A DNA stretch of 64,000 bases, taken from contig BPJB01000001.1 of the NCBI GenBank assembly GCA_026004395.1, forward strand, positions 327,343-391,342, read 5' to 3'. The notes beneath the pieces were generated by a model. It did no database searches. It was not told the origin of the DNA and saw only the letters and a list, made by a program, of their open reading frames with translations. Positions 33,063 to 59,782 of this stretch are shown in pieces. The DNA is from Patescibacteria group bacterium (GTDB lineage: Bacteria; Patescibacteriota; Microgenomatia; Levybacterales; UBA12049). How positions within the stretch are numbered: the first letter of the stretch is position 1; every line of letters starts with the position of its first letter. Both the position numbers and the translations under genes were made by a program.

Positions 33063-34688
33063 ATGCAATCTTGCTTTGGACTTCACAAGAAAACTGTTAA
33101 ATTATCTTTTCCAATTATTCTTATTTTTTTCTCACTGATTCTTCTTTTACCATTCTACTCAGGAAGCTTTTATCTAAATCATGACGCAGAGGTGCATTTA
33201 GTTAGATCAGTTGAATACATGAGAGCATTTCTTGATGGACAGCTCCCACCCCGCTGGGCTCCCAATCTTAACTTCGGTTTTGGGTCTCCAGTATTTATTA
33301 TATTTTACCCCTTAGCTGGATACCTAATCGCTTTATTACATTTGTTAGGGTTGTCACTTGAACATTCATTTCTGATTCTTGCAGGGATGGCATTTATTCT
33401 TGGACCGCTAGGATTTTTTTTATGGTTGAGAGAGAAATATGACGATTTCACAGCATTTCTTGCAGCTCTTTTTTATAGTGTTATTCCTTATAGATTTTTA
33501 ACGCTTTATGTGAGAGGGTCAATTGGAGAGCTTATTGCATTAAGCTTGATACCTTTTATTTTTTATTGTCTTGAATCAAGGAGATCAAAAATACTTGTTG
33601 GTGGAATTCTTTATGGATTGCTTGTTCTTTCTCACAATGGATTGAGTCTTATTTTTACTCCGATTTTTATTCTTTATTCTCTTTTTATAGCGAAAAAACA
33701 TAAAGAAATACTCTTGATGCTTGTTATTGGTTTGGGTTTGTCTTCATATTTTTGGATACCTGCACTTATTGAATCAAAATATACAAGTTTTCTTTTATAT
33801 TACAAAAATATGTATCGTGATAATTTTATATCTTTTCTATCGCTTATCTATTCTCCTTGGGGATTTGAGACGCGTATTAATGAACAAGGAGGACTTTCAG
33901 CGCAAATTGGTGTCCCCGGAATTGTTATATTAATAAGCGTGACAGTAATGATGTTTTTTAGAAGAGATAAAAAACAGACTTCATTTTTTCTTTTTTGGCT
34001 GGCAATTTTCCTAATTGGAATTTTTCTTTCCACTGCTTTGTCTTCTTCGCTTTGGGAGAAATTTGATTTCTTAAAAAAGTTTCAGTTTCCATGGAGATTT
34101 TTAGTTATTTCAAGTTTTGCAACTTCTGCGATTAGTCCAATTCTCTTTTCTAATACAAGTAAGCGTATAGCCTTAGTAATAATAGCGTTATGTATTGTGT
34201 ATTCTTTGCCTTTTATAAAAGTACAAAAATATATTACTAGAGGAGATAATTATTACTATTCTTATCAAGGCAGCAGTACTCATCGAGCAGAGGCAACTCC
34301 AATTTGGTCACCAGGAGATCCAAGCAGAAAAGCTTTGTCTCGATTGGAAATAATAGGAGGTCAAGGGATACTGAAAAATGTACACTTACAATCAACAAAA
34401 CATAGCTTCATAGTACTTTCTAGGACAGGAGTAGCAATTCTTGATAACACATTGTATTTTCCAGGATGGACACTACGAATTGATGGTCAGAAAACACCTC
34501 TAGAATTTCAAGATCCGAATCATCAAGGATTGATTACTTTTCATGTGCCTGCAGGTGAGCATACTGTAGAGGTGGCTTTTGAAAACACAAAAGTTCGTTT
34601 GGTGGGGAATATTATCTCTTTTGTTTCCATTCTCGCGGTTGTGGGATATGTATTTGCTTTAAAACTTAAAAATTTTAATATGAGATAA
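33063..34688 (+). CDS. Polytopic membrane protein, paralog family A (GT-C-like architecture; uncharacterised)
   Basis: Shares two modules with ORFs 41574, 43210 and 48607. N-terminal loop: HD..VHL.R...DGQLPPRW......GFGSP.F.FY.PL. C-terminal domain: YFPGW...DG.KTP.EFQDP....I...VP.GEH.V...FENT.VR. Confidence 0.6.
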   Translation: MQSCFGLHKKTVKLSFPIILIFFSLILLLPFYSGSFYLNHDAEVHLVRSVEYMRAFLDGQLPPRWAPNLNFGFGSPVFIIFYPLAGYLIALLHLLGLSLEHSFLILAGMAFILGPLGFFLWLREKYDDFTAFLAALFYSVIPYRFLTLYVRGSIGELIALSLIPFIFYCLESRRSKILVGGILYGLLVLSHNGLSLIFTPIFILYSLFIAKKHKEILLMLVIGLGLSSYFWIPALIESKYTSFLLYYKNMYRDNFISFLSLIYSPWGFETRINEQGGLSAQIGVPGIVILISVTVMMFFRRDKKQTSFFLFWLAIFLIGIFLSTALSSSLWEKFDFLKKFQFPWRFLVISSFATSAISPILFSNTSKRIALVIIALCIVYSLPFIKVQKYITRGDNYYYSYQGSSTHRAEATPIWSPGDPSRKALSRLEIIGGQGILKNVHLQSTKHSFIVLSRTGVAILDNTLYFPGWTLRIDGQKTPLEFQDPNHQGLITFHVPAGEHTVEVAFENTKVRLVGNIISFVSILAVVGYVFALKLKNFNMR

Positions 34689-36426
34689 TGAATTTTTCGC
34701 AAAATGTCTTTATATTAAGTTTTTCAACAAAAAGATGTGTTAAAGTAACGTCTGATATGTAATTTTTTGTTGGCATCTTATCACAAAGTACATCGTTATA
34801 AATTGCAAATGCTCCACCACTATCTTTAAGATGTGCAATAGTACGCTGAGATTTGTCTATTTTGACATCGCAAAGTGATTCGTAAATTACAGTGGCATCT
34901 TTTAACGTTTTAGGACTAGAGCATTGGACAAATGTGATATTGGGAATTTCATATATTCTTTTTTGGATTAGATTATTTATTTGGGGGATATTTTTTTTGG
35001 TGTAGATTCCTGAATAGAACAAGTATTCTCTAAAAAGTAATAAAGGATTGCTTGCATGGACTACGATTTGTTGATTTTGCGATGATGCAAGACTTACATA
35101 TCGTGCAAATACTCTATTGGGGAAGATCAAAATATTATCATTTAGTGGAAATTGGTAAAAATAAATGACTAGAAAATTTAAAAATAACAGGGAATAGATG
35201 CAAAAGATACCGATTGTAACAATTGAAGAATACCATTTGTTTTGCAAAGAGTTGATAAGAGTATATAAGCCGTATGCAATTATTATTAATAAAAGTGGAA
35301 TAAAGAGTGCTAAATGAGGAGTGAAGTTGCCATCGCCTTTGGGATTATGAAATACTTGAGGAAATGTTGATATAACAATAAGCGCTAGGAAAAATAACGA
35401 ACGTTTTTTATTACTTTGGAAAAAACTTACTATGCCAATCAGGAGAAAAAAAGCATCAAGATAATAGAATAATCCATGTCTTCCCAATGAAAAAAAGTAG
35501 TCGCCTGTTCCAAAAAGATATGTAGGAGAGGTTAAGTTGAAAATATTTGCAATTAGAGTTTGGAGATATAGCGTGTATTTATTTTCAAAAAACTTAATTA
35601 ACGGTGATGAGAGAGAAGATTGTCGTATATTATTAACTTCTTCAGCAAGATGCGTATGGTTGGGAAGAAAAATGTCTCCCATTCTTGATGCTTCAGGCTG
35701 GGCATTGAGTTGGTAAATAAATATGCCAACAATCATTATGGCTACTCCAAGAATAGCAATATAATAAGTTTTATAGCGTTTTTTGTGTATAACAAAAAAA
35801 GAGTAAACGGCACAGAGAATTATAAAAGGAAGAAATATCAGTTTCGTCCCAATATAAGAATAGAAAGCAAGGAGCATCGCAGGGATTGCAAGAAGAAGAT
35901 AGGGTCCTTTAGCTTTTAAGAGTATATACAGCGTTAAAATGTAGAAGAACGTCGCTGGCACGACTTCGTATGCAGTCCTTCCACTAAAAATAAACCAGGG
36001 ATTAATAGAACTTAACGCTGCAGCGATAATCCCAAATTTTTTATCTACAAGTTCTTTTCCGAGAAAATACATTAAGATCACAATTCCTACACTTAGGATA
36101 GCGTTGGGCAGCGCAGCTGTTGCAAGAGATAGTCCCAATGGCCCAACGCTAAGAAGAGTTAGTAAGTAAGGAAGTTCTGCTTGCATGCCTGCCCACTGAG
36201 GATAATGAAAAAGAAAAATATCCAAAAGTGTTGTATTACCACTAATATCTTTTCCTGTTTCATAAAAAGATTTTGCATCCAGAAGATAGTGCAGTTGGTC
36301 AAAACTGGTAGCGCTTGGTACATTGTTCAGCAGAAAGAATCTCGTAAAAACACTAATAAGAATAATTGCAAGAAAAAAACTATTCCTTTTTAGCAAGAGA
36401 TAAATATACACAACAATATTATACAT
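34675..36426 (-). CDS. GT-C-type (PMT/ArnT-like, GT39/83) polytopic membrane glycosyltransferase
   Basis: 583 aa with more than 12 TM helices. The extracytoplasmic first loop and overall topology resemble PMT_2-family proteins. Confidence 0.55.
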   Translation of the reverse strand: MYNIVVYIYLLLKRNSFFLAIILISVFTRFFLLNNVPSATSFDQLHYLLDAKSFYETGKDISGNTTLLDIFLFHYPQWAGMQAELPYLLTLLSVGPLGLSLATAALPNAILSVGIVILMYFLGKELVDKKFGIIAAALSSINPWFIFSGRTAYEVVPATFFYILTLYILLKAKGPYLLLAIPAMLLAFYSYIGTKLIFLPFIILCAVYSFFVIHKKRYKTYYIAILGVAIMIVGIFIYQLNAQPEASRMGDIFLPNHTHLAEEVNNIRQSSLSSPLIKFFENKYTLYLQTLIANIFNLTSPTYLFGTGDYFFSLGRHGLFYYLDAFFLLIGIVSFFQSNKKRSLFFLALIVISTFPQVFHNPKGDGNFTPHLALFIPLLLIIIAYGLYTLINSLQNKWYSSIVTIGIFCIYSLLFLNFLVIYFYQFPLNDNILIFPNRVFARYVSLASSQNQQIVVHASNPLLLFREYLFYSGIYTKKNIPQINNLIQKRIYEIPNITFVQCSSPKTLKDATVIYESLCDVKIDKSQRTIAHLKDSGGAFAIYNDVLCDKMPTKNYISDVTLTHLFVEKLNIKTFCEKFIISY

Positions 36427-36573
36427 GCAATAAACTTATTTTTAATTCCAATATTCGAAATTGAAAATAATAATATCTTAGCAGTATGAAGCGATATGAA
36501 ATTTAGTTGGAACATTTTGATATATATAGTAGTTTGTTTACATTTATGTAGGCAATAAATTGAAGTGGAAATG

Positions 36574-36646
36574 TGACCCCACGGGAATTCGAATCCCGGT
36601 TTTCAGGATGAGAACCTGATGTCCTAGACCACTAGACGATGGGGCC
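36574..36646 (-). tRNA. tRNA-Glu (anticodon CTC)
   Basis: Minus-strand sequence GGCCCCATCGTCTAGTGGTCTAGGACATCAGGTTCTCATCCTGAAAACCGGGATTCGAATTCCCGTGGGGTCA folds as a cloverleaf. 7-bp acceptor stem (one G-U pair), anticodon loop TTCTCAT, T-loop TTCGAAT. No encoded CCA. Confidence 0.85.
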
Positions 36647-36796
36647 AACAAAAAATATTGATCCAGTTTAAAAGTTACAAACTTGTAGATATTTTAGCGT
36701 AAGTATGCTTAATAAGCAAACAAATAGCAAATAGCAACTTATTGAAAAATTTTCAGTAACTATTCATGTTTGCTCATCTGGTGTATAATTTGAGTT

Positions 36797-37555
36797 GTGA
36801 ATAGTATTTTCCTTTCGGTAATAATCCCCTGTTACAACGAGATGGCTAATTTACAAAAAGGAGTCCTCGATAAAGTCAGTCATTATCTTTTAAAGCAAAA
36901 ATATTCATCAGAAGTAATCATCGTAGATGATGGATCAACAGATGGAAGTATTCAGTTTATTGAAAAATTTGTCAAAGAGAACGCAAATTTCAAACTTATC
37001 AAGAATAGACATACAGGTAAAGCAGGAGCAGTTTCAACAGGAATGTTGAATGGCAAGGGTGAATATCTACTTTTTACTGATATGGATCAAGCCACCCCAA
37101 TAGAGGAAGTTGAAAAGTTGATTCCTTATTTTAGAGAAGGTTATGATATAGTGATTGGATCGAGAAAATCTAAACGTGAGGGTGCACCCTGGACACGTAT
37201 ATTAATGGCTCGTGGAATGATGTTTTTGCGAACACTGGTTGTTGGTCTTCATGGTATTGATGATACACAATGTGGTTTTAAGATGTTTAGGAATGATGTG
37301 TCAAAAAAACTCTTTGGCACACTGCGTAAACTTCATAATGGATTTAAAGAGGTTACAGGGTCTAGTGTTACAGCGGGATTTGATGTCGAACTTTTGTATC
37401 TAGGTCAAAAAATGGGATACAAAATAAAAGAAGTTCCTGTCAGCTGGCTTTATGTTGAGACTAGAAGAGTTAATCCTCTTAAAGATTCGTTTCAAGGATT
37501 TCTAGATCTTTTGATAATTAAACAAAACGCAATCAAAGGCAAATATAATATATGA
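36797..37555 (+). CDS. GT2 polyprenyl-phosphate sugar synthase (GtrB/Dpm1/ArnC-like)
   Basis: LSVIIPCYNEMANL...VIIVDDGSTDGS...GKAGAVSTGM...LLFTDMDQATP are signature motifs of the Dpm1/GtrB/ArnC clade. Overlaps the next gene (ATGA). Confidence 0.8.
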   Translation: MNSIFLSVIIPCYNEMANLQKGVLDKVSHYLLKQKYSSEVIIVDDGSTDGSIQFIEKFVKENANFKLIKNRHTGKAGAVSTGMLNGKGEYLLFTDMDQATPIEEVEKLIPYFREGYDIVIGSRKSKREGAPWTRILMARGMMFLRTLVVGLHGIDDTQCGFKMFRNDVSKKLFGTLRKLHNGFKEVTGSSVTAGFDVELLYLGQKMGYKIKEVPVSWLYVETRRVNPLKDSFQGFLDLLIIKQNAIKGKYNI

Positions 37556-40024: not shown

Positions 40025-40055
40025 TAATGTGAGAATCTAGTATAATCTATAGTAT

Positions 40056-41577
40056 ATGCCAATACTTAAGAAAAGAAAAGTTGAGTTGTTTTTGGTAGTT
40101 TTCCTTTTTGCTCTTTACACTTTTTCACGACTTGGGGCTTTAACAAATATACCAATCTTTACTGATGAGGCAATTTATCTGAGATGGGCGCAGATCGCAG
40201 AATCTGATGCCAATTGGCGATTTATTTCACTTACCGATGGCAAACAGCCGCTTTTTATTTGGTTGACAATGCTAGCGATGAAAATTATTCCTGATCCCTT
40301 GATAGCGGGTAGAATGATCTCTGTATTGTCTGGACTTCTAACAGCTATTGGCTTATTTTTTCTTTCCCGAGAAATATTTCAAGAAAAATGGATAGGAATT
40401 ATTGCCGCAGGATTGTATGTTATTTATCCTTTTGCTCTTATTTATGATAGATTAGCTCTTTATGATTCTCTTGTTGGAACATTTGCAGTCTGGAGTCTTT
40501 ATGGTACAGTCTGTTTGGTGAGAGCTCTTCGTTTGGATGTTGCACTTTTGTTAGGTCTTGCTATAGGAGGTGCGGTATTGAATAAAACAAGCGGTTTTTT
40601 TCAATCTCTATCTTCTCCCTTTTGCATTACTTATTTTTGACTGGAAAAAGAAAAATCTAAGAGGTAGATTGATTCGTTTTATTCTCCTTTGTGGGGTAGT
40701 AGCATTAATGAGCTACGGAATGTATTCTATTTTACGTTTATCACCGTTTTTCTATATTATCGAGGAAAAGAATGCTGTGTTTGTCTACCCTTTTAGGGAT
40801 TGGATCCAACATCCTTTTGCGTATTTTTGGCAAAACTTAAGGGCACTTGTTGATTGGTTGGTAGCATATATGGGATTACCTTTAATATTATTAGCAGTAG
40901 GGTCTCTGTTTTTGAAAAAGACACTCATAAAAGAAAAGATTCTTTTAATAGTATGGTTTGTGGTGCCATTTATTGCTCTTGCATTGTTCGGAAAGACACT
41001 TTATCCTCGCTATATTTTTTTCATGACTCTTTCTCTTCTTCCACTTATAGCATATTCTATCTACATTCTTTATCGAAGACTAAAAGAAAAACCCTACCTT
41101 AGATTATTTTTTATTGTTTTAGCAATTTTTTATTCTTTTGTTTCGTCAATACTCATTCTTGCGGATTTCAAAAATGCGCCTATACCATCAGCAGACAAAT
41201 CACAATATCTTACAGGCTGGCCATCAGGTGTAGGTATTCCTGAGACAATTAATTTTTTTCAACAAAAAGCAAAAAAGGGTGAGATCTTTATTGGCACAGA
41301 AGGTACGTTTGGTCTTTTGCCATTTGCCTATGAATTATACTTTGTCAAGAATAAAAACATAACTGTTAAAGGATACTGGCCAATTGGGCCTGAGATTGAT
41401 CCAGAACTTGTAAAAATGAGTTTATCAAAACCTACCTATATGGTGTTTTATCAAGATTGCGTTCCTTGTGAAGCAAAAGGTATCGCACCTAGTACTTGGC
41501 CGCTTAAGAAAATTATGCAAATTCCAAAAGTTGAGAAAAATACTTATTTAACAGTTTATCAAGTACTACCACAATGA
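40056..41577 (+). pseudogene. GT-C (ArnT/PMT-like, DE-motif) membrane glycosyltransferase interrupted by a frameshift in a T7 homopolymer (pseudogene or sequencing error)
   Basis: ORF 40056-40640 contains TDEAIYLRW (DE motif). ORF 40669-41577 is in a different frame. The joined reading ...LNKTSGFF/FNLYLLPFALLIFDWKKKNLRGRLIRFILL... is continuous across the T-run at 40595-40601. Confidence 0.6.
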
Positions 41578-43217
41578 GAAAAGAATTAAAACAGGTCTTT
41601 CTTTGGATTTTTGTGCTTATTGTTCTTACTTTTCCTTTAATTCTTCCTTATTTCAGAGAAGGATATTTTCCCACACATGATGGCGAGTGGGCAGTTGTTC
41701 GACTTGCTGATATGTATCGAGAGATAAAAGACGGCCAAATTCCACCTAGATTCAGTGGAAATCTCAACTTTGGTTATGGTTATCCACTATTTAATTTTGC
41801 GTATCCTATGCCTTATTATCTGGGATTAGTATTCTTTTTATTACATATTGGCCTCGTCAATAGTATAAAAGTCCTTTTTGCGTTAAGTGTGCCTCTGAGT
41901 GCGATCATGATGTTTTTTGCATCAAGATCATTATGGGGAGGATCACTTGCAGGTCTGACAAGCGCTTTACTGTATGCATATTTACCTTATAGGATGGTTG
42001 ATCTTTATGTTAGAGGATCATTAGGAGAATCATTGGCATCTGTTCTATTCCCCACGATTTTTTATCTAATTACTGTTTTGTCATCTAGGAAATCTGTTTT
42101 TTTGGTTATTGGATTAGCAGCAGCATTTGGAACACTGATTTTAACACACAATATTATGGCTGTATTGTTTTCGATTATCATTAGTGCCTACGTTATATTT
42201 ATTTTCTTTACTTCTAAGAGCAAATATTGGAGGCAAATATTGTTGGGATTATTAGGAGGAATATTCCTTTCAGCATTTTTTTGGCTTCCCGCTCTTGTTG
42301 AAAAAAAGTTTGTTTTGCTTTCACAAATTCCGATTGCCGATCGTGATCTTTACTATGTTAATCCGTGGCAGCTTATTTTTTCTCCTTGGGGCTATGGAAC
42401 ACCTACCGAACAAAATTCATTTACTTATCAGTTAGGATTACCGCACATAATACTTTCGATTATAGGTTTTTTTCATATTTTGATTGATAAAAAAAAGGAT
42501 CAGAAACGTTTTTTAGGAATATTTTTGGCAGGGATGATTCTTGCTGCTATATTTATGCTTTTCCCCTTGTCTTCACCTCTTTGGGAAAATATTCCATTAA
42601 TTTCAGAAATTAATTATCCATGGACATTACTTTTCGTAATAGGATTTTTGATGAGTCTTCTTTCAGGAGTATTAATGAAGTATGGTAAAGTGATGAAAAT
42701 ATTTACAGTACTTTTTATTCTTTCAGCTATTGTTTTGGTATTACCTTTTGCAAAACCATCTGAATATGTTAATAGAGGGGATAGCTATTATTTTACCAAC
42801 GATGCGACTACAACTTCCTCCCGTGAGTTTATGCCTCTGTGGGTCAAACAGATGCCTCTTAATCGAGCAGCAGAAAAAGTACAAATTGTAAAAGGTAAAG
42901 GCAAAATTGAAGATATCAGAGCTACTTCTGATGAGATAACTTTTAGAGCTTCTTTATCTGAAAAAAGCATTATAAGATTGAATACAATTTTTTTCCCTAA
43001 TTGGAGATGGTATGTAGGTAAGAAACAAATTGCATTTAATTACGACAATCCTCAAGGTGTGATGGAAGCGACTTTTGATAAAGGCGAGCATGCAGTAAAA
43101 GTTGTATTTGAGAATACAACTGTGCGTACTTTTGCTAATTGGCTGTCATTGATGACATTTATTATTTTTGCTGTGATACTATCTCTTATATCTTGGAGAA
43201 AAGTATTAGATGAATAA
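41574..43217 (+). CDS. Polytopic membrane protein, paralog family A
   Basis: HDGEWAVVRLADMYREIKDGQIPPRF...GYGYPLFNFAYP. C-terminal FFPNWRWYVGKKQIAFNYDNPQGVMEATFDKGEHAVKVVFENTTVR. Confidence 0.6.
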   Translation: MRKELKQVFLWIFVLIVLTFPLILPYFREGYFPTHDGEWAVVRLADMYREIKDGQIPPRFSGNLNFGYGYPLFNFAYPMPYYLGLVFFLLHIGLVNSIKVLFALSVPLSAIMMFFASRSLWGGSLAGLTSALLYAYLPYRMVDLYVRGSLGESLASVLFPTIFYLITVLSSRKSVFLVIGLAAAFGTLILTHNIMAVLFSIIISAYVIFIFFTSKSKYWRQILLGLLGGIFLSAFFWLPALVEKKFVLLSQIPIADRDLYYVNPWQLIFSPWGYGTPTEQNSFTYQLGLPHIILSIIGFFHILIDKKKDQKRFLGIFLAGMILAAIFMLFPLSSPLWENIPLISEINYPWTLLFVIGFLMSLLSGVLMKYGKVMKIFTVLFILSAIVLVLPFAKPSEYVNRGDSYYFTNDATTTSSREFMPLWVKQMPLNRAAEKVQIVKGKGKIEDIRATSDEITFRASLSEKSIIRLNTIFFPNWRWYVGKKQIAFNYDNPQGVMEATFDKGEHAVKVVFENTTVRTFANWLSLMTFIIFAVILSLISWRKVLDE

Positions 43218-44892
43218 AATTTTTTTCTTTTTACTTTCTGTTTTTTCTTTTTTTTCTATTCTGCCGCTTTTGGGAAGAGAGTATTTCCCCATGCATGATG
43301 ATACTCAGGTTGCAAGAGTAATTGCTATGTCAACAGCTCTTCGTGATGGAATGTTTCCTGTTCGCTGGGTTGATATTTTAGGGTATGGTTATGGATATCC
43401 TATATTTAATTTTTACGCACCCTTAGCCTACTACGTTGGTGGCACTTTACATCTATTGGGTATTCCTCCAGTGGCTGCAACAAAAATTATGTTTGGCATC
43501 GGGATGCTTGCTGCCGGATTGTCAATGTATTTATTAGCAAAGGAGTTTTGGGGAGAATTAGGCGGATTACTTTCTGCATTATTGTATCTCTATGCTCCTT
43601 ATCATGCTGTTAATCTTTATGTAAGAGGTGCTATTGGAGAGTTGTGGGCTTACGGACTGATACCACTTGTATTTTTGGGTTTTTACAAACTTTTCAGCGC
43701 TATACAAAGTGAAGATAAAAGAAAAATTTGGTATTGGATTGGAATATCAGGATTTGCTTATGCAGCTTTGATTTTATCTCATAATTTGACAGCGTTCATT
43801 GTGACTCCTTTTTTAGTTATATTGATTATACTTTTTTGTATAGTCCTTAAGAGGCAACATATTAGCTTTGTTCATCTAATCTACGCTTTTTGTTTTGGAC
43901 TATTGTTCTGTGCTTTCTATTGGTTGCCGGCTATTCTTGAACTATCCTATACCAACGTTGGATCAATTTTGGGTGGAGGATCAAATCCCATAGACCATTT
44001 TGTCTGTTTATCTCAACTGTGGGCGAGTAACTGGGGATTTGCTGGCTCAGCACCGGGGTGTATTGATGGAATGTCTTTCATGATTGGGAAAATGCATATA
44101 ATTCTTGCGCTAGGTAGTTTTTTTGCCGCTCTTTTTTGGAAAAAAAGAGTCAAGAAAAATATATTTTTTATCCTTTTTATAGGTTTGGTACTTTCGGTTT
44201 TTCTCATGCTTAGTATTTCAAGATCGTTTTGGGAAGGCTTTCCTCTTATGATGTACATTCAATTTCCTTGGAGATATCTCACAATGGCTTCATTTTTTAG
44301 TTCATTATTGTCAGGAGGAATACTATTTATTTTATTAAGTTCTGTAAATCTAGATTATTTTAAAAAGGTAATTTTGGGAGTTTTTATTGGCCTGCTAATA
44401 ATTTTTATTTATGGGAAGTTTTTTGTGCCACAATATAAGATTAATGATATAACTCGCTATTCAAATATAGATTTTATACGATGGAATGTTTCCAAAATTT
44501 CTGATGAGTATTTGCCTTCTGATTTTAAAAAGCCAGAAAACATCTCAGATCTTCCTCAAAGCATTTTAGAGTTTATTAAAGGCTCTGGAAAAATTTATGT
44601 TGATAGAAAAACGACTACGCATCTTCTAGCATCCATAGTCGTTTCTAATGATGCAGTAATTAGAATACAAAGAGCCTACTTTCCAGCGTGGAGAATAGTA
44701 ATCAATGGAGTAGAAAAGACACCTATAATCAAAAATGGAGTATATTATCTCAATTTGCCTTCCGGAGATTATCGCTTGGAGATGAGTTTTGTTCAAACTC
44801 CGATTGAGAGAGTTGCGAATAGCCTTACACTTCTTGGTATTTTTCTTTTTATTGCTGGTATAATATATGCTCATCGAAAGGTGTTAAAATGA
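43210..44892 (+). CDS. Polytopic membrane protein, paralog family A
   Basis: HDDTQVARVIAMSTALRDGMFPVRW...GYGYPIFNFYAP. C-terminal YFPAWRIVINGVEKTP...GDYRLEMSFVQTPIER. Overlaps the previous gene by 8 nt. Confidence 0.6.
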   Translation: MNKIFFFLLSVFSFFSILPLLGREYFPMHDDTQVARVIAMSTALRDGMFPVRWVDILGYGYGYPIFNFYAPLAYYVGGTLHLLGIPPVAATKIMFGIGMLAAGLSMYLLAKEFWGELGGLLSALLYLYAPYHAVNLYVRGAIGELWAYGLIPLVFLGFYKLFSAIQSEDKRKIWYWIGISGFAYAALILSHNLTAFIVTPFLVILIILFCIVLKRQHISFVHLIYAFCFGLLFCAFYWLPAILELSYTNVGSILGGGSNPIDHFVCLSQLWASNWGFAGSAPGCIDGMSFMIGKMHIILALGSFFAALFWKKRVKKNIFFILFIGLVLSVFLMLSISRSFWEGFPLMMYIQFPWRYLTMASFFSSLLSGGILFILLSSVNLDYFKKVILGVFIGLLIIFIYGKFFVPQYKINDITRYSNIDFIRWNVSKISDEYLPSDFKKPENISDLPQSILEFIKGSGKIYVDRKTTTHLLASIVVSNDAVIRIQRAYFPAWRIVINGVEKTPIIKNGVYYLNLPSGDYRLEMSFVQTPIERVANSLTLLGIFLFIAGIIYAHRKVLK

Positions 44893-45602
44893 ATAAAAAA
44901 TTACCTGAATTATCAATCTTTTTCCCATTTTGGAATGAGGAAAAAAATATTGAGCAAGTTGTCACCAATGCTATCGCAATTGCTCCAAGAATTGCTAAGA
45001 AATGGGAGATTATTATTGTTGATGATGGTTCATCGGATAGGACTTGGGAAAAATCTCGGGAGATAGAATCGCAATACTCCAATATTCGTATTGTTCATCA
45101 TCATGTCAACCGCGGTTATGGTGCTGCATTAAAATCAGGATTTGAGCACAGCCAATATAACTACATAGTATTTACTGATGGAGATTTGCAATTCGATTTT
45201 TCAGAAGTGACCAAATTTATTGAAGTGATTGCAGATGCGGATATTGTTATCGGCTATCGAAAAAAAAGACAGGATAACCTAATAAGAAATATTCTGATGA
45301 CATTGTTAAAGATATGGGACTTTATTTTTTTCCGTTTTTATTTCAAAGATATAGATTGCGGTTTTAAGATGTTCCGCCGTGAAGCGATTGAGGCATTAAT
45401 GCCTCTTCGATCAGAAGGAGCAATGATAACAACTGAAATACTGGCAAAAGCAAAAGCGAAGAAGATGAAAATTAAGCAGGTTGGAGTATCTCATTTTCCA
45501 CGCAAACATGGTCAGTCAAGCGGTGGCAATATTCCAGTTATTATTCGAGCGGTACTTGAAACCTTTATTCTCTATTGGGATATTAAAAATAGGCGGTTTT
45601 AA
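44889..45602 (+). CDS. GT2 polyprenyl-phosphate sugar synthase (GtrB/Dpm1/ArnC-like)
   Basis: LSIFFPFWNEEKNI...IIVDDGSSDRT...NRGYGAALKSG...VFTDGDLQFD. Overlaps the upstream stop (ATGA). Confidence 0.8.
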   Translation: MNKKLPELSIFFPFWNEEKNIEQVVTNAIAIAPRIAKKWEIIIVDDGSSDRTWEKSREIESQYSNIRIVHHHVNRGYGAALKSGFEHSQYNYIVFTDGDLQFDFSEVTKFIEVIADADIVIGYRKKRQDNLIRNILMTLLKIWDFIFFRFYFKDIDCGFKMFRREAIEALMPLRSEGAMITTEILAKAKAKKMKIKQVGVSHFPRKHGQSSGGNIPVIIRAVLETFILYWDIKNRRF

Positions 45603-45604
45603 TT

Positions 45605-47056
45605 ATGCAAGAAATTGATATTGCCACAATTACAAGGCGTTCCATTCATGGCGTTTTCGCTTTGGTCTCCAGGACGTTTCTGATACAGATAGTTATGCAG
45701 TTGGTGAGTTTTCTGCTTACGATCTATCTTCTTCCTGAGGAATATGGAATGTTTTATATTGTGTCAGCAGCAATTGCTTTTCTTGCTTATTTTTCTGATA
45801 TTGGATTGGCAGCTGCTTTAATTCAGAAAAAGGAAGAGTTAACAAAAGACGATTTAAGAACTACATTTACAATACAGCAAGCACTTGTATTAAGTGTTTC
45901 AATTATTGCTCTTATTTTTACCGATGCTGTGGGTAAATTTTATAACCTCAATAATGAGGGAAAGCTCCTTTATCAGGTACTTATCTTCTCCTTTGTTTTA
46001 TCATCGCTTAAGACAATACCTTCCATACTTCTTGAGAGAAAACTTCTTTTTCAAAAATTAGTCATTCCTGAGATTGTTGAGACAGTTGCGTTCAGTGTGA
46101 CGGTTTTAATTTTGGCAATACAAAACTTCGGAATAGCAAGTTTTACCTATGCAGTTTTCCTGCGTGGTTTACTAGGATTACTTACAATGTATCTTATTGC
46201 TCCGTGGAGACCGCAGATAGGTTTTTCACTAAATGTGGCGAAGCGTTTACTTGCATTCGGTGTTCCATTTCAGGCAAATAGCATCCTAGCTTTGTTGAAA
46301 GATCAACTTCTTGTAATTTATCTAGGTAAAGCGTTATCACTTACGCAAGTGGGATATATTGGGGTAGCCCAAAAATTAGCATACACACCCCTTAGACTTT
46401 TTATGGATAATATTATTCGTATAACCTTTCCATCTTTTTCTCGATTGGCTGAGACTAAATATCTTGGTAAAGCCATAGAAAAAACACTATTTGCAATTAG
46501 TGCATTTATTTTTCCTGCATCTGCTGGCATGGTGATTCTTATGCCTTATTTTATTCGCGTTTTTCCCAAATATGAAAAATGGGAGCCTGTTCTTCTTTCA
46601 CTAACATTTTTTTCTCTAAACGCAATTCTCTCTAGCCTATCAACGCCTTTGACCAATGCTCTCAATGCCATCGGAAAGATCAAGATAACATTGCATCTTA
46701 TGATTTTTTGGACACTAGCGACATGGATTCTGATACCCATTTTTATTGGAATTTTTGGATTTGATGGAGTGTCTATTGCCTCAGCTTTTATTTCAGTAAG
46801 CGTTGTTGCAGTGGTTTTTCTTGCGAAACAATATATTCCTTTCAGTATCCTTTCCGTAATTTATCCGCCATTTTTAGCAACAATTATTATGGCCATCTCT
46901 CTTTTTTTTATTTCAACGTATATTATCACTTCCCTGCAAACTTTGATTCTTGCTATGCTAGTGGGAGGAGGAATATATTTATTGACCCTTTTTCTGATAG
47001 CAAAGAAGCAAATTCTATCAGATTTAGAATTAATTAGAGCTAATTTAAAAAGGTAA
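45605..47056 (+). CDS. Wzx/MOP-superfamily polysaccharide/oligosaccharide flippase
   Basis: 483 aa with about 14 TM helices, typical polysaccharide-biosynthesis-protein composition. Lies inside the glycosyltransferase cluster. Confidence 0.65.
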   Translation: MQEIDIATITRRSIHGVFALVSRTFLIQIVMQLVSFLLTIYLLPEEYGMFYIVSAAIAFLAYFSDIGLAAALIQKKEELTKDDLRTTFTIQQALVLSVSIIALIFTDAVGKFYNLNNEGKLLYQVLIFSFVLSSLKTIPSILLERKLLFQKLVIPEIVETVAFSVTVLILAIQNFGIASFTYAVFLRGLLGLLTMYLIAPWRPQIGFSLNVAKRLLAFGVPFQANSILALLKDQLLVIYLGKALSLTQVGYIGVAQKLAYTPLRLFMDNIIRITFPSFSRLAETKYLGKAIEKTLFAISAFIFPASAGMVILMPYFIRVFPKYEKWEPVLLSLTFFSLNAILSSLSTPLTNALNAIGKIKITLHLMIFWTLATWILIPIFIGIFGFDGVSIASAFISVSVVAVVFLAKQYIPFSILSVIYPPFLATIIMAISLFFISTYIITSLQTLILAMLVGGGIYLLTLFLIAKKQILSDLELIRANLKR

Positions 47057-47057
47057 T

Positions 47058-47978
47058 ATGTCTAAATTATCCGTTGTAATTTCTGTACACAATGGCGAGA
47101 GAGTTTTGGAAGAGTGTTTAAGATCAGTTGTCTGGGCAGATGAGATAGTAGTAATAGATCATGATTCTGATGATGCGACAGCTTCAATTGCAAAGAAATA
47201 TACGAAAGTAGTTGTGTCAAGACCCAATGATCCTAAGAATATTGATTTGCAAAAAAATTATGGATTTGAAAAAGCTACCAATGAGTGGATTTTAAGTCTT
47301 GACGCTGATGAGCGTGTTTCAGCAGATTTGGCTCAGGAAATTAAGTCTGTTATTAACAATGCAGTATGCGAAGCATATGAAATTCCTCGCAAAAATATAA
47401 TTTTTGGTAAATGGATTCAACATTCGTTCTGGTGGCCTGATTACCAAGTCCGTCTTTTTAAAAAAGGTAAAGGAAAATATGTAGAAAAAGGCGTTCATAA
47501 GCAGCTTAAAGTGGATGGTCCAGTTGGCAAACTGCAAAACCCTCTTATCCATGAAAATTATCAGAGTATTAGCCAATATATACAAAAAATGGATGTTTAT
47601 ACTGAAAATGAAGCCTCATCACTGGTACAACAAGGTACGCATTTTAATTGGAGAGATGCGCTGCGTATGCCTGTTAGGGATTTTCTTAAAACCTTTTTCT
47701 TGCAGGAAGGATATAAAGATGGTTTTCATGGTTTAGTCTTAAGCACTTTGCAAGGTTTTTATACATTTTTGGTTATTATCAAAGTATGGGAGAAAAATGG
47801 TTTTAAGGAAGAATACAATTCTGCATTTCTAAAAACTATCTTAAAAGAATGGAGGAAACTTCAAAATGAGATTTTTTACTGGATACTTTCAACATTGATC
47901 ATATCTTCAAGAAATCCCTTTAAAAAATTTTTCTATCGTATTAAGAGAAAAATAGTGATGATGCGACTTAGAGATTAA
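47058..47978 (+). CDS. GT2 glycosyltransferase (LPS-core beta-glycosyltransferase-like) with C-terminal extension
   Basis: LSVVISVHNGERVLEECLRS...EIVVIDHDSDDAT...LSLDADERV (DxD). Paralog of ORF 53662-54411. Confidence 0.75.
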   Translation: MSKLSVVISVHNGERVLEECLRSVVWADEIVVIDHDSDDATASIAKKYTKVVVSRPNDPKNIDLQKNYGFEKATNEWILSLDADERVSADLAQEIKSVINNAVCEAYEIPRKNIIFGKWIQHSFWWPDYQVRLFKKGKGKYVEKGVHKQLKVDGPVGKLQNPLIHENYQSISQYIQKMDVYTENEASSLVQQGTHFNWRDALRMPVRDFLKTFFLQEGYKDGFHGLVLSTLQGFYTFLVIIKVWEKNGFKEEYNSAFLKTILKEWRKLQNEIFYWILSTLIISSRNPFKKFFYRIKRKIVMMRLRD

Positions 47979-48584
47979 TTAATTTTCAAAACGTGTAAGA
48001 TTTAACCAATATTTATTTTCAGTAATTCCTCTATCTAATCCATTGAAATCAAAAAAACCAACAGTTTTTTTCAGCTCCTTTTGCGATTTTAAAAATATCA
48101 ATTTATATAAATTATTTTCTCGATACAAAACTGTATCATTATCGCGGTAAATTACTGTTTTTGAATGTAGTTCTTCACTCTTAATAATTTTTGACAACTC
48201 ATGTTCTGCAACAAGAAAATCTATACTGACAAGTTTGGGAGATTTATAGATTAAAAAAGCTTTATCTGTTGGGGATAAAGAAATAGGAATATCAATGATG
48301 GCAAGAGTATTTGCTACTAAATCAGAAGGTATACCTGTTTTGGAAAATATACCTGATCCAGGAGAATAAAAATCGCGAAACTTCCAGAATTTTTGGGTAT
48401 TAAGATAATTGGTATCTTTTATATCAGTTAAAAATTCTTTTCTTAATTTTTCTCTGGCAAATGGTAATGTTAGAGTTGATATTGCTGGAACAAAAATAAG
48501 CGAAGAACAGACAAGAGTGAAGATAATAAAGATATAAATAATTAAATGAGAATAATGAGGATGATCTTTTTGTTTTTTATTCAT
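47979..48584 (-). CDS. Hypothetical N-terminally anchored extracytoplasmic protein
   Basis: 201 aa. Single N-terminal TM helix then a soluble domain. The only minus-strand gene within the plus-strand cluster 36797-53669. Confidence 0.4.
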   Translation of the reverse strand: MNKKQKDHPHYSHLIIYIFIIFTLVCSSLIFVPAISTLTLPFAREKLRKEFLTDIKDTNYLNTQKFWKFRDFYSPGSGIFSKTGIPSDLVANTLAIIDIPISLSPTDKAFLIYKSPKLVSIDFLVAEHELSKIIKSEELHSKTVIYRDNDTVLYRENNLYKLIFLKSQKELKKTVGFFDFNGLDRGITENKYWLNLTRFEN

Positions 48585-48606
48585 TCTTCTTCTATACTAT
48601 CAATAC

Positions 48607-50295
48607 ATGCAAAGCAAAAAAGAACTTTTTTTTATTTTTTGTATTTTTTTATCTTCAATTATTTTTGTCTTTGATCTGTTCCTGCATCAGGGTTTGCCGC
48701 AAACATTCGATAATCTTGCTCATGCTACTTCAATTACTCAATTTTTTTTGGCTTTGAAAGATGGCGATTTTCCTGTACGCTGGTCTGATGGCATCGGTAA
48801 TTATGGTCTTCCTCTTCCCATTGTAGCACATCAAGTTCCTAATTATCTGGGAGCGTTTCTGATGTATTTTTTAAATGATCCTGAGATAGTATTAAAGATA
48901 CTTTACTTCTTATCTATATTTCTATCAGGATTTTTCTTTTATCTATTTCTTAAATATTATTTCCCCCCGTTGTATGCTTTTTGTGGTACATTTTTTTATA
49001 TTTTTTCCTCTTACAAAATATTCAATACCTATGTCAGAGGTGCTCTACCTGAGTTATTCTCAGCAATTTGGTTGCCCATAATTCTTCTGGGTATACTGCT
49101 TTTTGTGAAAGAGAAGCAATTTAAAGGATTGTTATTAATCACAATGAGTGTTGCCAACCTTGCTTTGACTCATCCAATGATGCTTCTTATCTACTCATTT
49201 ATTTATTTGCCTTTTTTGTTTTGGATGCTAATATCTTCGCGAGATAAAAAAAATAATTTTTTACATTTATTGGTTCAAAGAAGTACTATTGCATGTATTG
49301 GAGGGATCATGTTAGCCCTTTTAATCGCAGGATATTATCTCATCCCTCTTGTTTTAGAGATAAAGTATTTTTATCTTGGTAATTCTCAACCGTTTACCCC
49401 TGGCAATTATCTTACTTGGGATAGCTTTTTTGGAATGCAATGGCCCTACTTTACCGAAAAAGATATTGTAACTCGTGGACATGTTGTAAATGTTGGTATT
49501 TTGGAAACATTAGTTTTTATTATGGGAATATTTTTATTCTTTCATTCAATAAAAAATAAAAAAAACAATGATCAACTCGGTATTTTATTTTTTGCCATCC
49601 TTAATGGACTGTTAGTGATTATTTTGATGTTGCCTTTTGCTGAAAATATTTTTTACTCTGTTAAAATATTGGGAAGTGTTCAGTTTCAGTGGAGATTTCT
49701 TTCAGCCTTTAATTTTTTCCCTCCAATTATTCTCGCATATGCTCTGACAAGATTAAATAAACAGTTTTTTGTAATTTTGGTAATTCTTACTATTGCATTT
49801 TTCTCTTTTCCGCAACTTTATGGGAAGAATTATATGCAAGTAGACAAAAAAAATTATTTTTTTACTCCTATCAATGTACATTCTGTACTCTTGAATACAA
49901 TCTGGTCAGGCAGGACAGAAGATTATCCTCTAAAAAAACAAAAAGCAGAAGTAATAGAAGGAGTTGGAAAAATAAAAGAAAAAAAGGAATCGAACTCTCA
50001 AAGAACATATTTAGTTGATGCTCAGACACCATTGAGGATGGTAGATTATACTTTTTATTTCCCCGGATGGAATGTATATATTGACGGCAAAAAAACCCCA
50101 ATTGAATTTCAAGACCCATCTTTTAGAGGAGTTATAACTTATCAGGTACCTTACGGAGAGCACTTGATTCATATTAAGTTTGAAAATACAAAAATTCGTC
50201 TCTTAGGAAATAGTCTTTCACTTTTGGGAATTGGATTGTTTGTGCTTGCTATTTTTTGTCAGAAAAGTGTTAAGAAATTTCTTAAGGTTTGTTAA
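48607..50295 (+). CDS. Polytopic membrane protein, paralog family A
   Basis: N-terminal LAHATSITQFFLALKDGDFPVRW. C-terminal YFPGWNVYIDGKKTPIEFQDPSFRGVITYQVPYGEHLIHIKFENTKIR, which closely matches the C-terminus of ORF 33063. Confidence 0.6.
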   Translation: MQSKKELFFIFCIFLSSIIFVFDLFLHQGLPQTFDNLAHATSITQFFLALKDGDFPVRWSDGIGNYGLPLPIVAHQVPNYLGAFLMYFLNDPEIVLKILYFLSIFLSGFFFYLFLKYYFPPLYAFCGTFFYIFSSYKIFNTYVRGALPELFSAIWLPIILLGILLFVKEKQFKGLLLITMSVANLALTHPMMLLIYSFIYLPFLFWMLISSRDKKNNFLHLLVQRSTIACIGGIMLALLIAGYYLIPLVLEIKYFYLGNSQPFTPGNYLTWDSFFGMQWPYFTEKDIVTRGHVVNVGILETLVFIMGIFLFFHSIKNKKNNDQLGILFFAILNGLLVIILMLPFAENIFYSVKILGSVQFQWRFLSAFNFFPPIILAYALTRLNKQFFVILVILTIAFFSFPQLYGKNYMQVDKKNYFFTPINVHSVLLNTIWSGRTEDYPLKKQKAEVIEGVGKIKEKKESNSQRTYLVDAQTPLRMVDYTFYFPGWNVYIDGKKTPIEFQDPSFRGVITYQVPYGEHLIHIKFENTKIRLLGNSLSLLGIGLFVLAIFCQKSVKKFLKVC

Positions 50296-54411: not shown

Positions 54412-54651
54412 CTATTTTTTGAGCATTCTAAACCAGTCACTAATTTGATCAACAGTAAGTTTATTCTTGGCAAAGCGCAAAAGGAAAATAATCTCTAAAA
54501 CACCCAAAGTATTAAGAATAAGCATAGCAATAAACCAATATTTTTGTTCTCCTTGTGCTGCTCTCCATAAAGCCAATCCTTTCCAAAGGATAGCCCATAA
54601 GAAGATAAAATAAAATATAAAAGGTGGTATATTGCCAATAGATGGGTTCAT
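54412..54651 (-). CDS. Small two-TM membrane protein (hypothetical)
   Basis: 79 aa. FIFYFIFLWAILWKGLALWRAA...WFIAMLILNTLGVLEIIFLL has two hydrophobic helices. It is antisense-embedded between a GT2 and a GT4 gene. Confidence 0.4.
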   Translation of the reverse strand: MNPSIGNIPPFIFYFIFLWAILWKGLALWRAAQGEQKYWFIAMLILNTLGVLEIIFLLRFAKNKLTVDQISDWFRMLKK

Positions 54652-54706
54652 TTTCTATATCTTAACATACATTTTGATAAATAGCAAAAATTGCTACAAT
54701 AAAAGA

Positions 54707-58068: not shown

Positions 58069-58071
58069 TTT

Positions 58072-59745: not shown

Positions 59746-59782
59746 TTTATTGGATAATATAATTAATTATACTAAAAAGAGA

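What the first reader, a model, noticed from the sequence alone, without database searches (positions are those of the whole stretch)
33063..50295. Paralog family A: four 540-560-aa membrane proteins sharing an unusual HD...DGxxPxRW...GYGYP loop and a conserved C-terminal YFPGW...GEH...FENTxVR domain
ORFs 33063, 41574, 43210 and 48607 align along their whole length.
- An N-terminal extracytoplasmic loop: HD(A/G/D)E/T..V.R.......DG..P.RW.....GYGYP.F.FY.P.
- About 12 TM helices.
- A 70-aa C-terminal soluble module, clearest between 33063 and 48607: YFPGWTLRIDGQKTPLEFQDPNHQGLITFHVPAGEHTVEVAFENTKVRL versus YFPGWNVYIDGKKTPIEFQDPSFRGVITYQVPYGEHLIHIKFENTKIRL.

I cannot place this with confidence in a named family; PTPS-related membrane proteins or YfhO-like proteins are candidates. 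The conserved acidic/aromatic loop is where GT-C enzymes carry catalytic residues. The conserved C-terminal beta-rich domain could be a substrate-binding (carbohydrate/peptide) module. The four copies differ enough to suggest different acceptor specificities.
Basis: seen in the sequence. Interest (0 to 1): 0.7.

Follow-up and report, generated by a model that had tools for sequence, protein, structure and literature searches.

The report
Four compact YfhO-like membrane glycosyltransferase paralogs

Summary
The four ORFs are real at the stated coordinates. They are homologous over their full length (24-34 % identity, BLASTP E 1e-26 to 1e-87) and under purifying selection (dN/dS ~0.2).

The C-terminal YFPGW...GEH module is an eight-strand beta-sandwich on the outer face, followed by a final TM helix. 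It is not unique to this family: it matches the C-terminal end of Pfam's YfhO profile and the C-terminus of a genuine YfhO-type gene in the same window (55777-58068). The family is therefore a compact YfhO/PTPS-related GT-C lacking YfhO's ~370-residue middle.

All conserved polar residues lie on the outer face. They include an Asp (158/159 members) capping the first helix of external loop 1, where GT-C_A enzymes carry the catalytic base.

The copies are ancient paralogs with positional orthologs across Microgenomates. In other genomes, 17 of 19 tandem pairs are followed directly by an ArnC/DPMS/GtrB-like GT2.

The likely role is transfer of sugar from polyprenyl-phosphate to an unknown envelope acceptor. 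This is a new member of a known kind.

The parts
33063..34688 (+). Family A copy 1 (541 aa), GT-C_A-fold membrane protein, PF10131-type
41574..43217 (+). Family A copy 2 (547 aa), first gene of the conserved tandem pair; its start overlaps the upstream ORF by 4 nt
   Evidence: PF10131 17.4 bits, below cut-off. Nearest relatives are first-of-pair genes in other genomes. dN/dS 0.20.
43210..44892 (+). Family A copy 3 (560 aa), second gene of the tandem pair; overlaps copy 2 by 8 nt and the downstream GT2 by 4 nt
   Evidence: PF10131 33.7 bits. Nearest relatives are second-of-pair genes elsewhere. Its type forms the C-terminal half of the natural fusion protein P0121.
48607..50295 (+). Family A copy 4 (562 aa), a divergent but conserved subfamily (H40F, R48S, N192P and other changes); followed 54 nt downstream by a GT2
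   Evidence: The subfamily-specific substitutions are shared with P0053, P0077 and P0117.
33162..33356 (+). External loop 1 of copy 1 (aa 34-98) carrying HD...R...DG..P.RW...N...G.P; Asp41 is at nt 33183-33185. Equivalent loops: 41658-41852, 43276-43467, 48688-48879
   Evidence: Asp conserved in 158/159 family members, R48 and R64 in 157/159, G74 and P76 in 159/159. Loop helices at 42-57 and 77-94. Outer-face location by the positive-inside rule. Coordinates.
33507..33530 (+). YVRGxxxE hairpin between TM3 and TM4 (copy 1 aa 149-156), outer face. Equivalents: 42006-42029, 43618-43641, 49030-49053
   Evidence: R151 in 159/159, G152 in 157/159, E156 in 155/159. Coordinates. A role in donor phosphate or metal binding is inference only.
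34344..34580 (+). C-terminal extracytoplasmic beta-sandwich module of copy 1 (aa 428-506; YFPGW...GEH...FENT). Equivalents: 42879-43109, 44566-44790, 49945-50181
34590..34682 (+). Final TM helix of copy 1 (aa 510-540) anchoring the beta module; C-terminus cytoplasmic. Equivalents: 43119-43214, 44800-44889, 50191-50289
44889..45602 (+). Small GT2 (237 aa), candidate polyprenyl-phosphate-sugar synthase, translationally coupled to copy 3
   Evidence: PF00535 at 5.7e-31. Best PDB sequence relatives are ArnC, PfDPMS and GtrB. Partial NCBIfam matches to ArnC, PgfS, AglJ and PpgS. In other genomes 17 of 19 tandem pairs are followed by such a GT2.
45605..47056 (+). Wzx-type flippase candidate (483 aa, Polysacc_synt_3)
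   Evidence: PF13440 at 1.2e-42.
47058..47978 (+). GT2 (306 aa), last gene of the same-strand run 40056-47978
   Evidence: PF00535 at 1.2e-16.
50349..51065 (+). Small GT2 (238 aa) directly downstream of copy 4, DPMS/AglJ-like
   Evidence: PF00535 at 4.8e-38. AglJ partial match at 3.4e-34. PfDPMS at 2.7e-16 over residues 1-234.
36797..37555 (+). Small GT2 (252 aa), the nearest GT2 to copy 1
   Evidence: PF00535 at 7.8e-29. Partial matches to PgfS, ArnC and others.
55777..58068 (+). Genuine YfhO-family GT-C (763 aa) in the same island; carries the same C-terminal YxPxW...GEH module without a final TM helix
   Evidence: PF09586 at 29.4 bits, above cut-off 28.5. Sequence. hhalign to the family A core Prob 95 %, E 3e-8, and to the beta module Prob 93.5 %.

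Best explanation
The four genes encode 12-TM, GT-C_A-fold glycosyltransferases of a compact YfhO/PTPS-related lineage (nearest Pfam model PF10131).

Proposed mechanism (inferred):
1. A small cytoplasmic GT2 next to the gene (44889, 50349 or 36797) loads a sugar from a nucleotide sugar onto polyprenyl phosphate.
2. The lipid-linked sugar is flipped across the membrane, possibly by the Wzx-type protein at 45605.
3. The GT-C transfers the sugar to an acceptor on the outer face of the cytoplasmic membrane.

Within the GT-C, the near-invariant Asp at the start of the first helix of external loop 1 would act as catalytic base. The outer-face Arg, His and Glu residues (R64, R151, E156, H191, E237, R345) would hold the donor phosphate and the acceptor. 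The membrane-tethered C-terminal beta-sandwich would help position the acceptor.

The four copies are ancient paralogs that probably differ in donor and/or acceptor. The acceptor is unknown: a cell-wall polymer or Ser/Thr-rich surface proteins, the two acceptor classes known for YfhO enzymes.

Shown here: homology, fold, topology, residue conservation, synteny and purifying selection. Inferred: catalysis, the lipid-linked donor, flipping and the acceptor.
For: Homology and constraint:
- Full-length homology among the four and purifying selection (dN/dS ~0.2).

Fold:
- The AF2 model has pLDDT 94.6 and pTM 0.93.
- All nine Foldseek PDB matches with E <= 0.001 are GT-C_A enzymes (AglB, STT3, AftD, PglB); AftA and ArnT follow at E ~0.003-0.004, all with prob 1.0.

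Family placement:
- Pfam PF10131 hits all four, with copies 1 and 3 above the cut-off, and 79 of 91 homologs.
- PF10131 belongs to Pfam's GT-C clan CL0111 and has no known function (PMC7801869).
- The family A profile aligns to the window's YfhO-type core at Prob 95 %.
- The beta module matches the YfhO C-terminal end.

Active-site geometry:
- The positive-inside rule places EL1-EL5 and the beta module outside.
- D41 is conserved in 158/159 members, R151 in 159/159, H191 in 158/159, and R48 and R64 in 157/159.
- D41 caps the first of two EL1 helices. In GT-C_A enzymes that helix carries the catalytic base, and the donors are isoprenoid-linked sugars (PMC13503287).

Gene context:
- Adjacent small GT2s are most similar to ArnC, DPMS and GtrB, and a Wzx-type gene lies in the same operon-like run.
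- Copies 2 and 3 and the GT2 overlap by 8 and 4 nt.
- In other genomes, 17 of 19 tandem pairs are followed directly by a small GT2.
- This is the gene set of multi-component transmembrane glycosylation systems (PMC8035078).
Against: - No member of this family or of PF10131 has been characterised. There is no PDB sequence relative and no NCBIfam model.
- Copies 2 and 4 score below Pfam's cut-off, and the Pfam match covers only profile positions 1-~310 of 621. It excludes the EL1 loop.
- The equivalence of D41 to the catalytic base rests on topology and helix position. Model coordinates could not be superposed.
- There is no DE, DD or DxD motif conserved at that site in all four copies.
- Copy 4 and its subfamily have lost several near-invariant residues: H40, R48 and N192.
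- The small GT2s lack the C-terminal TM helices of ArnC, GtrB and PfDPMS (237-252 aa versus 322-374 aa).
- Wzx-type flippases usually handle diphosphate-linked oligosaccharides, so the donor could be Und-PP-linked.
- No candidate acceptor was found in the window.
Confidence: 0.8

Rival explanations
1. En-bloc oligosaccharyltransferase or ligase. The proteins transfer a pre-assembled glycan from undecaprenyl-diphosphate (flipped by the Wzx-type protein) onto a protein or polymer, as STT3, AglB and PglB do, instead of adding single sugars from polyprenyl-monophosphate donors.
Confidence: 0.1
2. Non-catalytic GT-C-fold proteins. Like PIG-U/GAB1 in GPI transamidase, some or all copies (especially the divergent copy 4) serve as lipid- or substrate-binding scaffolds or partners of another enzyme and do not transfer sugar themselves.
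Confidence: 0.05
3. Membrane transporter or flippase, not a glycosyltransferase.
For: It is a polytopic 12-TM protein. MFS and other transporters appear far down the Foldseek list.
Against: Those transporter matches have probability 0.14 or less, TM-score 0.10-0.15 and E above 0.1. No transporter family appears in Pfam or NCBIfam. The conserved polar residues cluster on one face only, in loops and not along a translocation path.
Confidence: 0.02

Closest known systems
YfhO family (Pfam PF09586): B. subtilis and S. aureus YfhO (GlcNAc onto lipoteichoic acid), L. monocytogenes YfhO (wall teichoic acid), streptococcal PgtC2 and PgfM1 (sugars onto Ser/Thr-rich disordered regions of surface proteins)
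   Same: GT-C fold. The TM core is homologous: hhalign Prob 95 % to the window's own YfhO-type protein, and homologs match YfhO profile positions 84-386. Both carry the same C-terminal YxPGW...G(E)H beta module. Both are genomically paired with a GT-A/GT2 polyprenyl-P-sugar synthase and a flippase (PMC8035078, PMC5836110, PMC12041528).
   Different: About 540-560 aa against a profile of ~835 positions, so the ~370-residue middle part of YfhO is missing. None of the four copies reaches the YfhO cut-off. The EL1 motif (HD...R...DG..P.RW...G.P) is not matched by the YfhO model. A final TM helix follows the beta module here but not in the window's YfhO-type protein. The organism is a CPR bacterium, where teichoic acids are not established.
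Pfam PF10131 'PTPS_related' (GT-C clan CL0111, function unknown)
   Same: Best Pfam match for all four copies and for 79 of 91 homologs. Same clan as STT3, PMT and PMT_2 (PMC7801869).
   Different: Only profile positions 1-~310 of 621 are matched, copies 2 and 4 fall below the cut-off, and the model does not cover TM1 or EL1. This is a divergent, shorter subfamily, or a sister family.
Solved GT-C_A enzymes: Pmt1-Pmt2 and Pmt4, ArnT, AftD and AftA, AglB, PglB and STT3
   Different: Only 9-15 % sequence identity. No MIR domains, no WWD motif, and no PMT, PMT_2 or STT3 Pfam hit for the four copies. The variable module and C-terminal anchor are different.

Membership tests
GT-C superfamily, class GT-C_A (definition as given in PMC13503287, citing Alexander & Locher 2023) | Polytopic membrane protein whose fold matches solved GT-C_A enzymes (N-terminal conserved TM module plus variable C-terminal module) | tested here: met
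GT-C superfamily, class GT-C_A | First extracytoplasmic loop with two helices, the first carrying an acidic catalytic base | tested here: met
   EL1 (aa 34-98) has helices 42-57 and 77-94. Asp41 at the N-cap of the first helix is conserved in 158/159 members. Presence and position are shown; the catalytic role is inferred, since no superposition or assay was possible.
GT-C superfamily, class GT-C_A | Uses an isoprenoid-phosphate-linked sugar as donor | not testable with these tools
   Only contextual evidence: adjacent ArnC/DPMS/GtrB-like GT2 genes and a Wzx-type gene.
Pfam PF10131 PTPS_related | Whole-protein score at or above the gathering cut-off (26.4 bits) | tested here: inconclusive
   Copy 1 scores 28.7 and copy 3 scores 33.7 (met). 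Copy 2 scores 17.4 and copy 4 scores 16.6 (not met). 79 of 91 homologs hit at E <= 0.01.
Pfam PF10131 PTPS_related | Match over the whole 621-position model | tested here: not met
   Only positions ~1-310 are matched in every copy and in the homologs.
YfhO family (Pfam PF09586) | Whole-protein score at or above the gathering cut-off (28.5 bits) | tested here: not met
   No hit at E <= 1 for the full-length copies. The C-terminal fragments score 15.1 and 13.0 bits. Some homologs do pass (for example P0037 at 45.6 bits and P0103 at 34.2 bits).
YfhO family (Pfam PF09586) | C-terminal YxPGW...G.H beta module | tested here: met
   Matches profile positions 758-831 of 835. hhalign Prob 93.5 %, E 2e-7 to the C-terminus of the window's YfhO-type protein.
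YfhO family (Pfam PF09586) | Full-length architecture (profile of ~835 positions, including the large middle region) | tested here: not met
   The copies are 541-562 aa. Profile positions ~386-758 have no counterpart.
Oligosaccharyltransferases STT3/AglB/PglB (GT66) | WWDxG motif in a C-terminal extracytoplasmic domain; Pfam STT3 match | tested here: not met
   No WWD in any copy and no STT3 hit for the four copies.
PMT/ArnT-type GT-C (Pfam PMT, PMT_2; GT39/GT83) | Pfam PMT or PMT_2 match; MIR domains for PMTs | tested here: not met
   No such hits for the four copies at E <= 1. 18 of 91 homologs touch PMT_2, which indicates a clan-level relationship only.
Multi-component transmembrane glycosylation system (PMC8035078) | Co-located genes for a GT-A-fold polyprenyl-P-sugar synthase, a flippase (GtrA- or Wzx-type) and a GT-C | tested here: met
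   GT2 genes at 36797, 44889 and 50349. Wzx-type gene at 45605. The GT-C copies themselves. Overlapping start and stop codons. Conserved linkage in other genomes. Gene presence only; function was not tested.
Multi-component transmembrane glycosylation system (PMC8035078) | Defined extracytoplasmic acceptor (teichoic acid, cell-wall polysaccharide or protein) | not testable with these tools
   No Ser/Thr-rich ORF in the window. The envelope polymers of this organism are unknown.

The most novel reading that the evidence does not exclude
The conserved tandem pair (copy 2 type and copy 3 type) works as an obligate heterodimeric GT-C, as Pmt1-Pmt2 does. The two genes overlap, are followed by the same GT2 in 17 of 19 other genomes, and occur fused in the same order in at least one protein (P0121).

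The whole 30-kb island, with about 13 GT-C genes, would then be an extracytoplasmic assembly line of the mycobacterial type. It would build a complex surface glycan from polyprenyl-phosphate sugars in an ultra-small, probably episymbiotic CPR bacterium, possibly the glycan that mediates contact with the host.
Probability: 0.2. Interest if true: 0.65.

Novelty: new member of a known kind. Interest (0 to 1): 0.38.

Why it matters
The family is very large: 34,110 cluster representatives at 50 % identity with E <= 0.001, and 9,968 with E <= 1e-30. It has no characterised member, no solved structure and no functional name.

Its closest relatives all come from Microgenomates/Patescibacteria. These are ultra-small bacteria with genomes of about 1 Mb, yet here they devote at least 30 kb to about 13 GT-C genes plus GT2 and GT4 genes and a flippase.

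Placing the family as a compact YfhO-type, lipid-sugar-dependent glycosyltransferase gives testable catalytic residues and defined partner genes. It also suggests that extracytoplasmic glycosylation of the envelope is a major activity in these organisms, relevant to how they present their surface to hosts and phages. It does not reveal a new kind of system.

Tried and rejected
- PDB sequence search with the four-copy profile: no hit even at E <= 10.
- NCBIfam: no model for any copy.
- Transporter reading: rejected, because only insignificant Foldseek matches appeared (prob 0.14 or less).
- OST membership: rejected, with no WWD motif and no STT3 hit.
- Recent duplication: rejected, because copies 2 and 3 are closer to positional orthologs in other genomes (distance 0.53-0.58) than to each other (0.75).
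- Copy 4 as a decaying gene: rejected, because its odd substitutions are shared by a conserved subfamily.
- ORF 32495-33052 as a conserved partner (flippase or accessory): no homolog next to family members in 78 other loci and no Pfam match.
- Acceptor candidates: no Ser/Thr-rich ORF in the window.
- Literature: nothing on PF10131 function, on GT-C enzymes in CPR, or on YfhO in CPR. A Patescibacteria review does not mention glycosylation.
- Model coordinates are not exposed, so I could not superpose Asp41 on known catalytic bases.
Full report
**Observation**

The four ORFs are present exactly as listed: 33063-34688 (541 aa), 41574-43217 (547 aa), 43210-44892 (560 aa) and 48607-50295 (562 aa), all on the + strand.

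- They align from end to end, at 27-34 % identity to copy 1 with 42 invariant columns.
- Pairwise BLASTP E-values run from 1e-26 to 1e-87 over 500-570 residues.
- A profile of the four finds no fifth member among all window ORFs of 80 aa or more.
- Against a 92.9 %-identical relative (locus L001), copies 1 and 2 show dN/dS of 0.19 and 0.20, so these are real, constrained genes.

The quoted C-terminal strings are correct, and that module is indeed most alike between copies 1 and 4 (43 % versus 23-28 % for other pairs).

Three corrections apply. First, the loop motif is only partly shared: copy 4 has FD, no 'V.R' arginine, and NYGLP; copy 1 has GFGSP; copy 2 has RF. Second, the beta module is ~80 residues and is followed by a last TM helix. 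Third, the relevant gene island is larger than the stated range.

**Family placement by sequence**

Pfam's PTPS_related model (PF10131) is the best match for all four. Copies 1 and 3 score above the curated cut-off (28.7 and 33.7 versus 26.4 bits), and copies 2 and 4 score below it. The match covers only profile positions 1-~310 of 621 and starts after external loop 1. PF10131 belongs to Pfam's GT-C clan and has no known function (PMC7801869).

There is no NCBIfam model and no PDB sequence relative.

The family is large. The word-indexed search gave 592 hits among the 8,000 scored candidates; where named, they are 'hypothetical' proteins from Levybacteria and Shapirobacteria. The exhaustive profile search gave 34,110 cluster representatives at E <= 0.001 and 9,968 at E <= 1e-30.

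In the species-level genome collection, the 80 best loci come from Levy-, Gottesman-, Roizman- and Woesebacteria or are labelled Patescibacteria. Many others are MAG records labelled 'uncultured Gammaproteobacteria'. I did not check the taxonomy of those records; I suspect a placeholder label because their gene order matches the Patescibacteria loci.

Of 91 aligned members, 79 hit PF10131, 18 hit YfhO, 18 hit PMT_2 and 4 hit STT3.

**Fold**

An AlphaFold2 model of copy 1 built on the 91-sequence alignment is very confident (mean pLDDT 94.6, pTM 0.93).

- Foldseek against the PDB: all nine matches with E <= 0.001 are GT-C enzymes (AglB, STT3, AftD, PglB). AftA and ArnT follow at E ~0.003-0.004, all with prob 1.0. 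Transporters appear only at probability 0.14 or less.

These are all members of the GT-C_A class. That class is defined by isoprenoid-linked sugar donors, a conserved N-terminal TM module, a variable C-terminal module, and a first luminal loop with two helices of which the first carries the catalytic base (PMC13503287).

**Topology and conserved residues**

The model's helices plus the positive-inside rule over 159 family members give 12 TM helices with both termini in the cytoplasm. K+R per residue is 0.20-0.54 in the N-terminus, CL2-CL5 and the C-terminus, against 0-0.07 in EL1-EL5.

Every strongly conserved polar residue lies on the outer face:

| Residue(s) | Conservation (of 159) |
|---|---|
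| H40 | 138 |
| D41 | 158 |
| R48 | 157 |
| R64 | 157 |
| G74, P76 | 159 each |
| R151 | 159 |
| G152 | 157 |
| E156 | 155 |
| H191 | 158 |
| N192 | 155 |
| P233 | 159 |
| E237 | 153 |
| W344 | 145 |
| R345 | 152 |

D41 sits at the N-terminal cap of the first EL1 helix (aa 42-57), which is the canonical place for the GT-C_A catalytic base. This is a positional inference. I could not superpose coordinates, and there is no DE, DD or DxD motif conserved at that site in all four copies.

**The C-terminal module**

It is an eight-strand beta-sandwich (aa 428-506 in copy 1). It lies outside the membrane and is tethered by a final TM helix.

It is not a peculiarity of these paralogs:

- On its own it matches the extreme C-terminus of the Pfam YfhO profile (positions 759-823 of 835; E 0.007 and 0.03).
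- In homologs the same match reaches 34.2 bits, above YfhO's cut-off (P0103), while their TM cores match YfhO positions 84-386.
- The window itself holds a genuine YfhO-type gene (55777-58068, 763 aa, 29.4 bits versus cut-off 28.5). It ends ...YYPTWRVFI...GGEHTIEF.
- hhalign gives Prob 95 % (E 3e-8) between the family profile and that protein's core, and Prob 93.5 % (E 2e-7) between the module profile and its C-terminus.

The family is therefore best described as a compact YfhO/PTPS-related GT-C that lacks the ~370-residue middle of YfhO.

**Context**

Copies 2 and 3 overlap by 8 nt. Copy 3 overlaps the next gene, a 237-aa GT2, by 4 nt. A Wzx-type flippase candidate (PF13440, 1e-42) and another GT2 follow. 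Copy 4 is followed 54 nt later by a 238-aa GT2.

The small GT2s are most similar to enzymes that load sugars onto polyprenyl phosphate: ArnC, P. furiosus DPMS and GtrB in the PDB, and ArnC, AglJ, PpgS and PgfS among NCBIfam models. All the NCBIfam matches are far below equivalog cut-offs, and the GT2s lack the C-terminal TM helices of those enzymes.

The island is much larger than the finding. Between 33 and 63 kb there are 4 family A genes, 7 PMT_2-like GT-Cs (one only sub-threshold, one split), 1 GT87, 1 YfhO-type, six GT2, one GT4 and the flippase.

**Age and divergence of the paralogs**

- In 79 related loci, 55 carry two or three family members within 21 kb. The block of tandem pair, small GT2, ~4 kb gap, then third copy recurs.
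- Of 19 tight tandem pairs in other genomes, 17 are followed directly by a small GT2.
- Copies 2 and 3 are closer to first-of-pair and second-of-pair genes of other genomes (distances 0.53-0.58) than to any paralog in the window (0.71-0.84).
- Copy 4 is the most divergent. However, its unusual substitutions (H40 to F/M, R48 to S/T/A, N192 to P) are shared by P0053, P0077 and P0117, so it represents a conserved subfamily and not decay.
- Divergence among copies is slightly greater in the variable module (26 % mean identity) than in the conserved module (31 %). It is greatest in the linker before the beta module (19 %).
- One representative protein (P0121, 1116 aa) is a fusion of a copy-2-type half and a copy-3-type half in the genomic order. 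This hints at physical cooperation, but I could not check its DNA.

**Most likely mechanism**

1. A neighbouring GT2 makes a polyprenyl-phosphate sugar.
2. The lipid-linked sugar is flipped across the membrane.
3. The GT-C transfers the sugar to an acceptor at the outer face, with Asp41 as base, the outer-face Arg and His residues holding the phosphate, and the tethered beta-sandwich helping with the acceptor.

Homology, fold, topology, conservation and linkage are shown. Catalysis, donor, flipping and acceptor are inferred.

Characterised YfhO enzymes have two acceptor classes. One is teichoic acids (PMC5836110, listed but not read here; PMC8035078). The other is Ser/Thr-rich disordered regions of surface proteins (PMC12041528). 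Either class, or a CPR-specific polymer, is possible here. No Ser/Thr-rich ORF lies in the window.

The rivals are all less well supported: an OST-like en-bloc transferase using Und-PP-glycans, a non-catalytic GT-C-fold partner, and a transporter (see the rival list).

**Novelty and verdict**

The proteins are divergent members of a catalogued but uncharacterised GT-C family, so this is a new member of a known kind.

I found nothing in the held literature on PF10131 function, on GT-C enzymes in CPR, or on YfhO-type enzymes in CPR bacteria.

What stands out:
- the size of the family with no characterised member;
- the 'mini-YfhO' architecture;
- the conserved tandem pair with a natural fusion;
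- the density of GT-C genes in a very small genome.

Interest is moderate (0.38).

Noticed in passing
window 40056-41577 (junction near 40595-40602): A PMT_2-type GT-C gene is split into two ORFs (40056-40640, 194 aa; 40669-41577, 302 aa). In the 92.9 %-identical relative L001 it is one 506-aa gene. The only length difference is a 1-nt indel beside a T7 homopolymer (window GGTTTTTTTCAATC versus L001 GGTTTTTTT-ACTC). This could be a sequencing error, a true pseudogene or a slippage site; it is unresolved.
   Followed up: partly
window 53620-63027: The glycosylation island continues beyond the finding: GT2 (53620), GT4 (54632), a YfhO-family GT-C (55777-58068) and three more PMT/PMT_2-type GT-Cs (58072, 59750, 61423). 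Together with 33-53 kb this makes about 13 GT-C genes in 30 kb.
   Followed up: partly
window 32495-33052 (+): A 185-aa multi-TM ORF lies 10 nt upstream of copy 1. It has no Pfam match even at E <= 1 and is under strong constraint against L001 (dN/dS 0.08). No homolog was found beside family members in the 78 other loci. Function unknown.
   Followed up: partly
window 47979-48584 (-): A 201-aa ORF on the opposite strand, with an N-terminal hydrophobic segment and no Pfam match, sits between the GT2 at 47058 and copy 4.
   Followed up: no
window 34675-36426 (-): A 583-aa polytopic protein converges on copy 1 and overlaps its 3' end by 14 nt. It has only a sub-threshold PMT_2 match (19.6 bits versus cut-off 26.1), and its L001 counterpart has no Pfam hit on record.
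   Followed up: no
proteins P0121, P0122, P0123, P0124: Some library proteins contain several family A units in one chain: 1116 aa and 1093 aa with two units, 1670 aa with four matched stretches, and 3329 aa with six. P0121 is a copy-2-type::copy-3-type fusion in the genomic order. These may be real fusions or gene-calling or assembly artefacts. Their DNA was not checked.
   Followed up: partly
window 3754-5013 (-): A 419-aa protein combines an N-terminal MerR-type HTH with PAS, HisKA and HATPase_c domains, that is, a histidine kinase carrying a DNA-binding domain.
   Followed up: no
loci L003, L004, L008-L010 and many others: Many MAG records holding close relatives are titled 'uncultured Gammaproteobacteria', although their gene content and synteny match the Patescibacteria/Microgenomates loci. 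I suspect placeholder or wrong taxonomic labels in those TPA assemblies, but I did not check.
   Followed up: no
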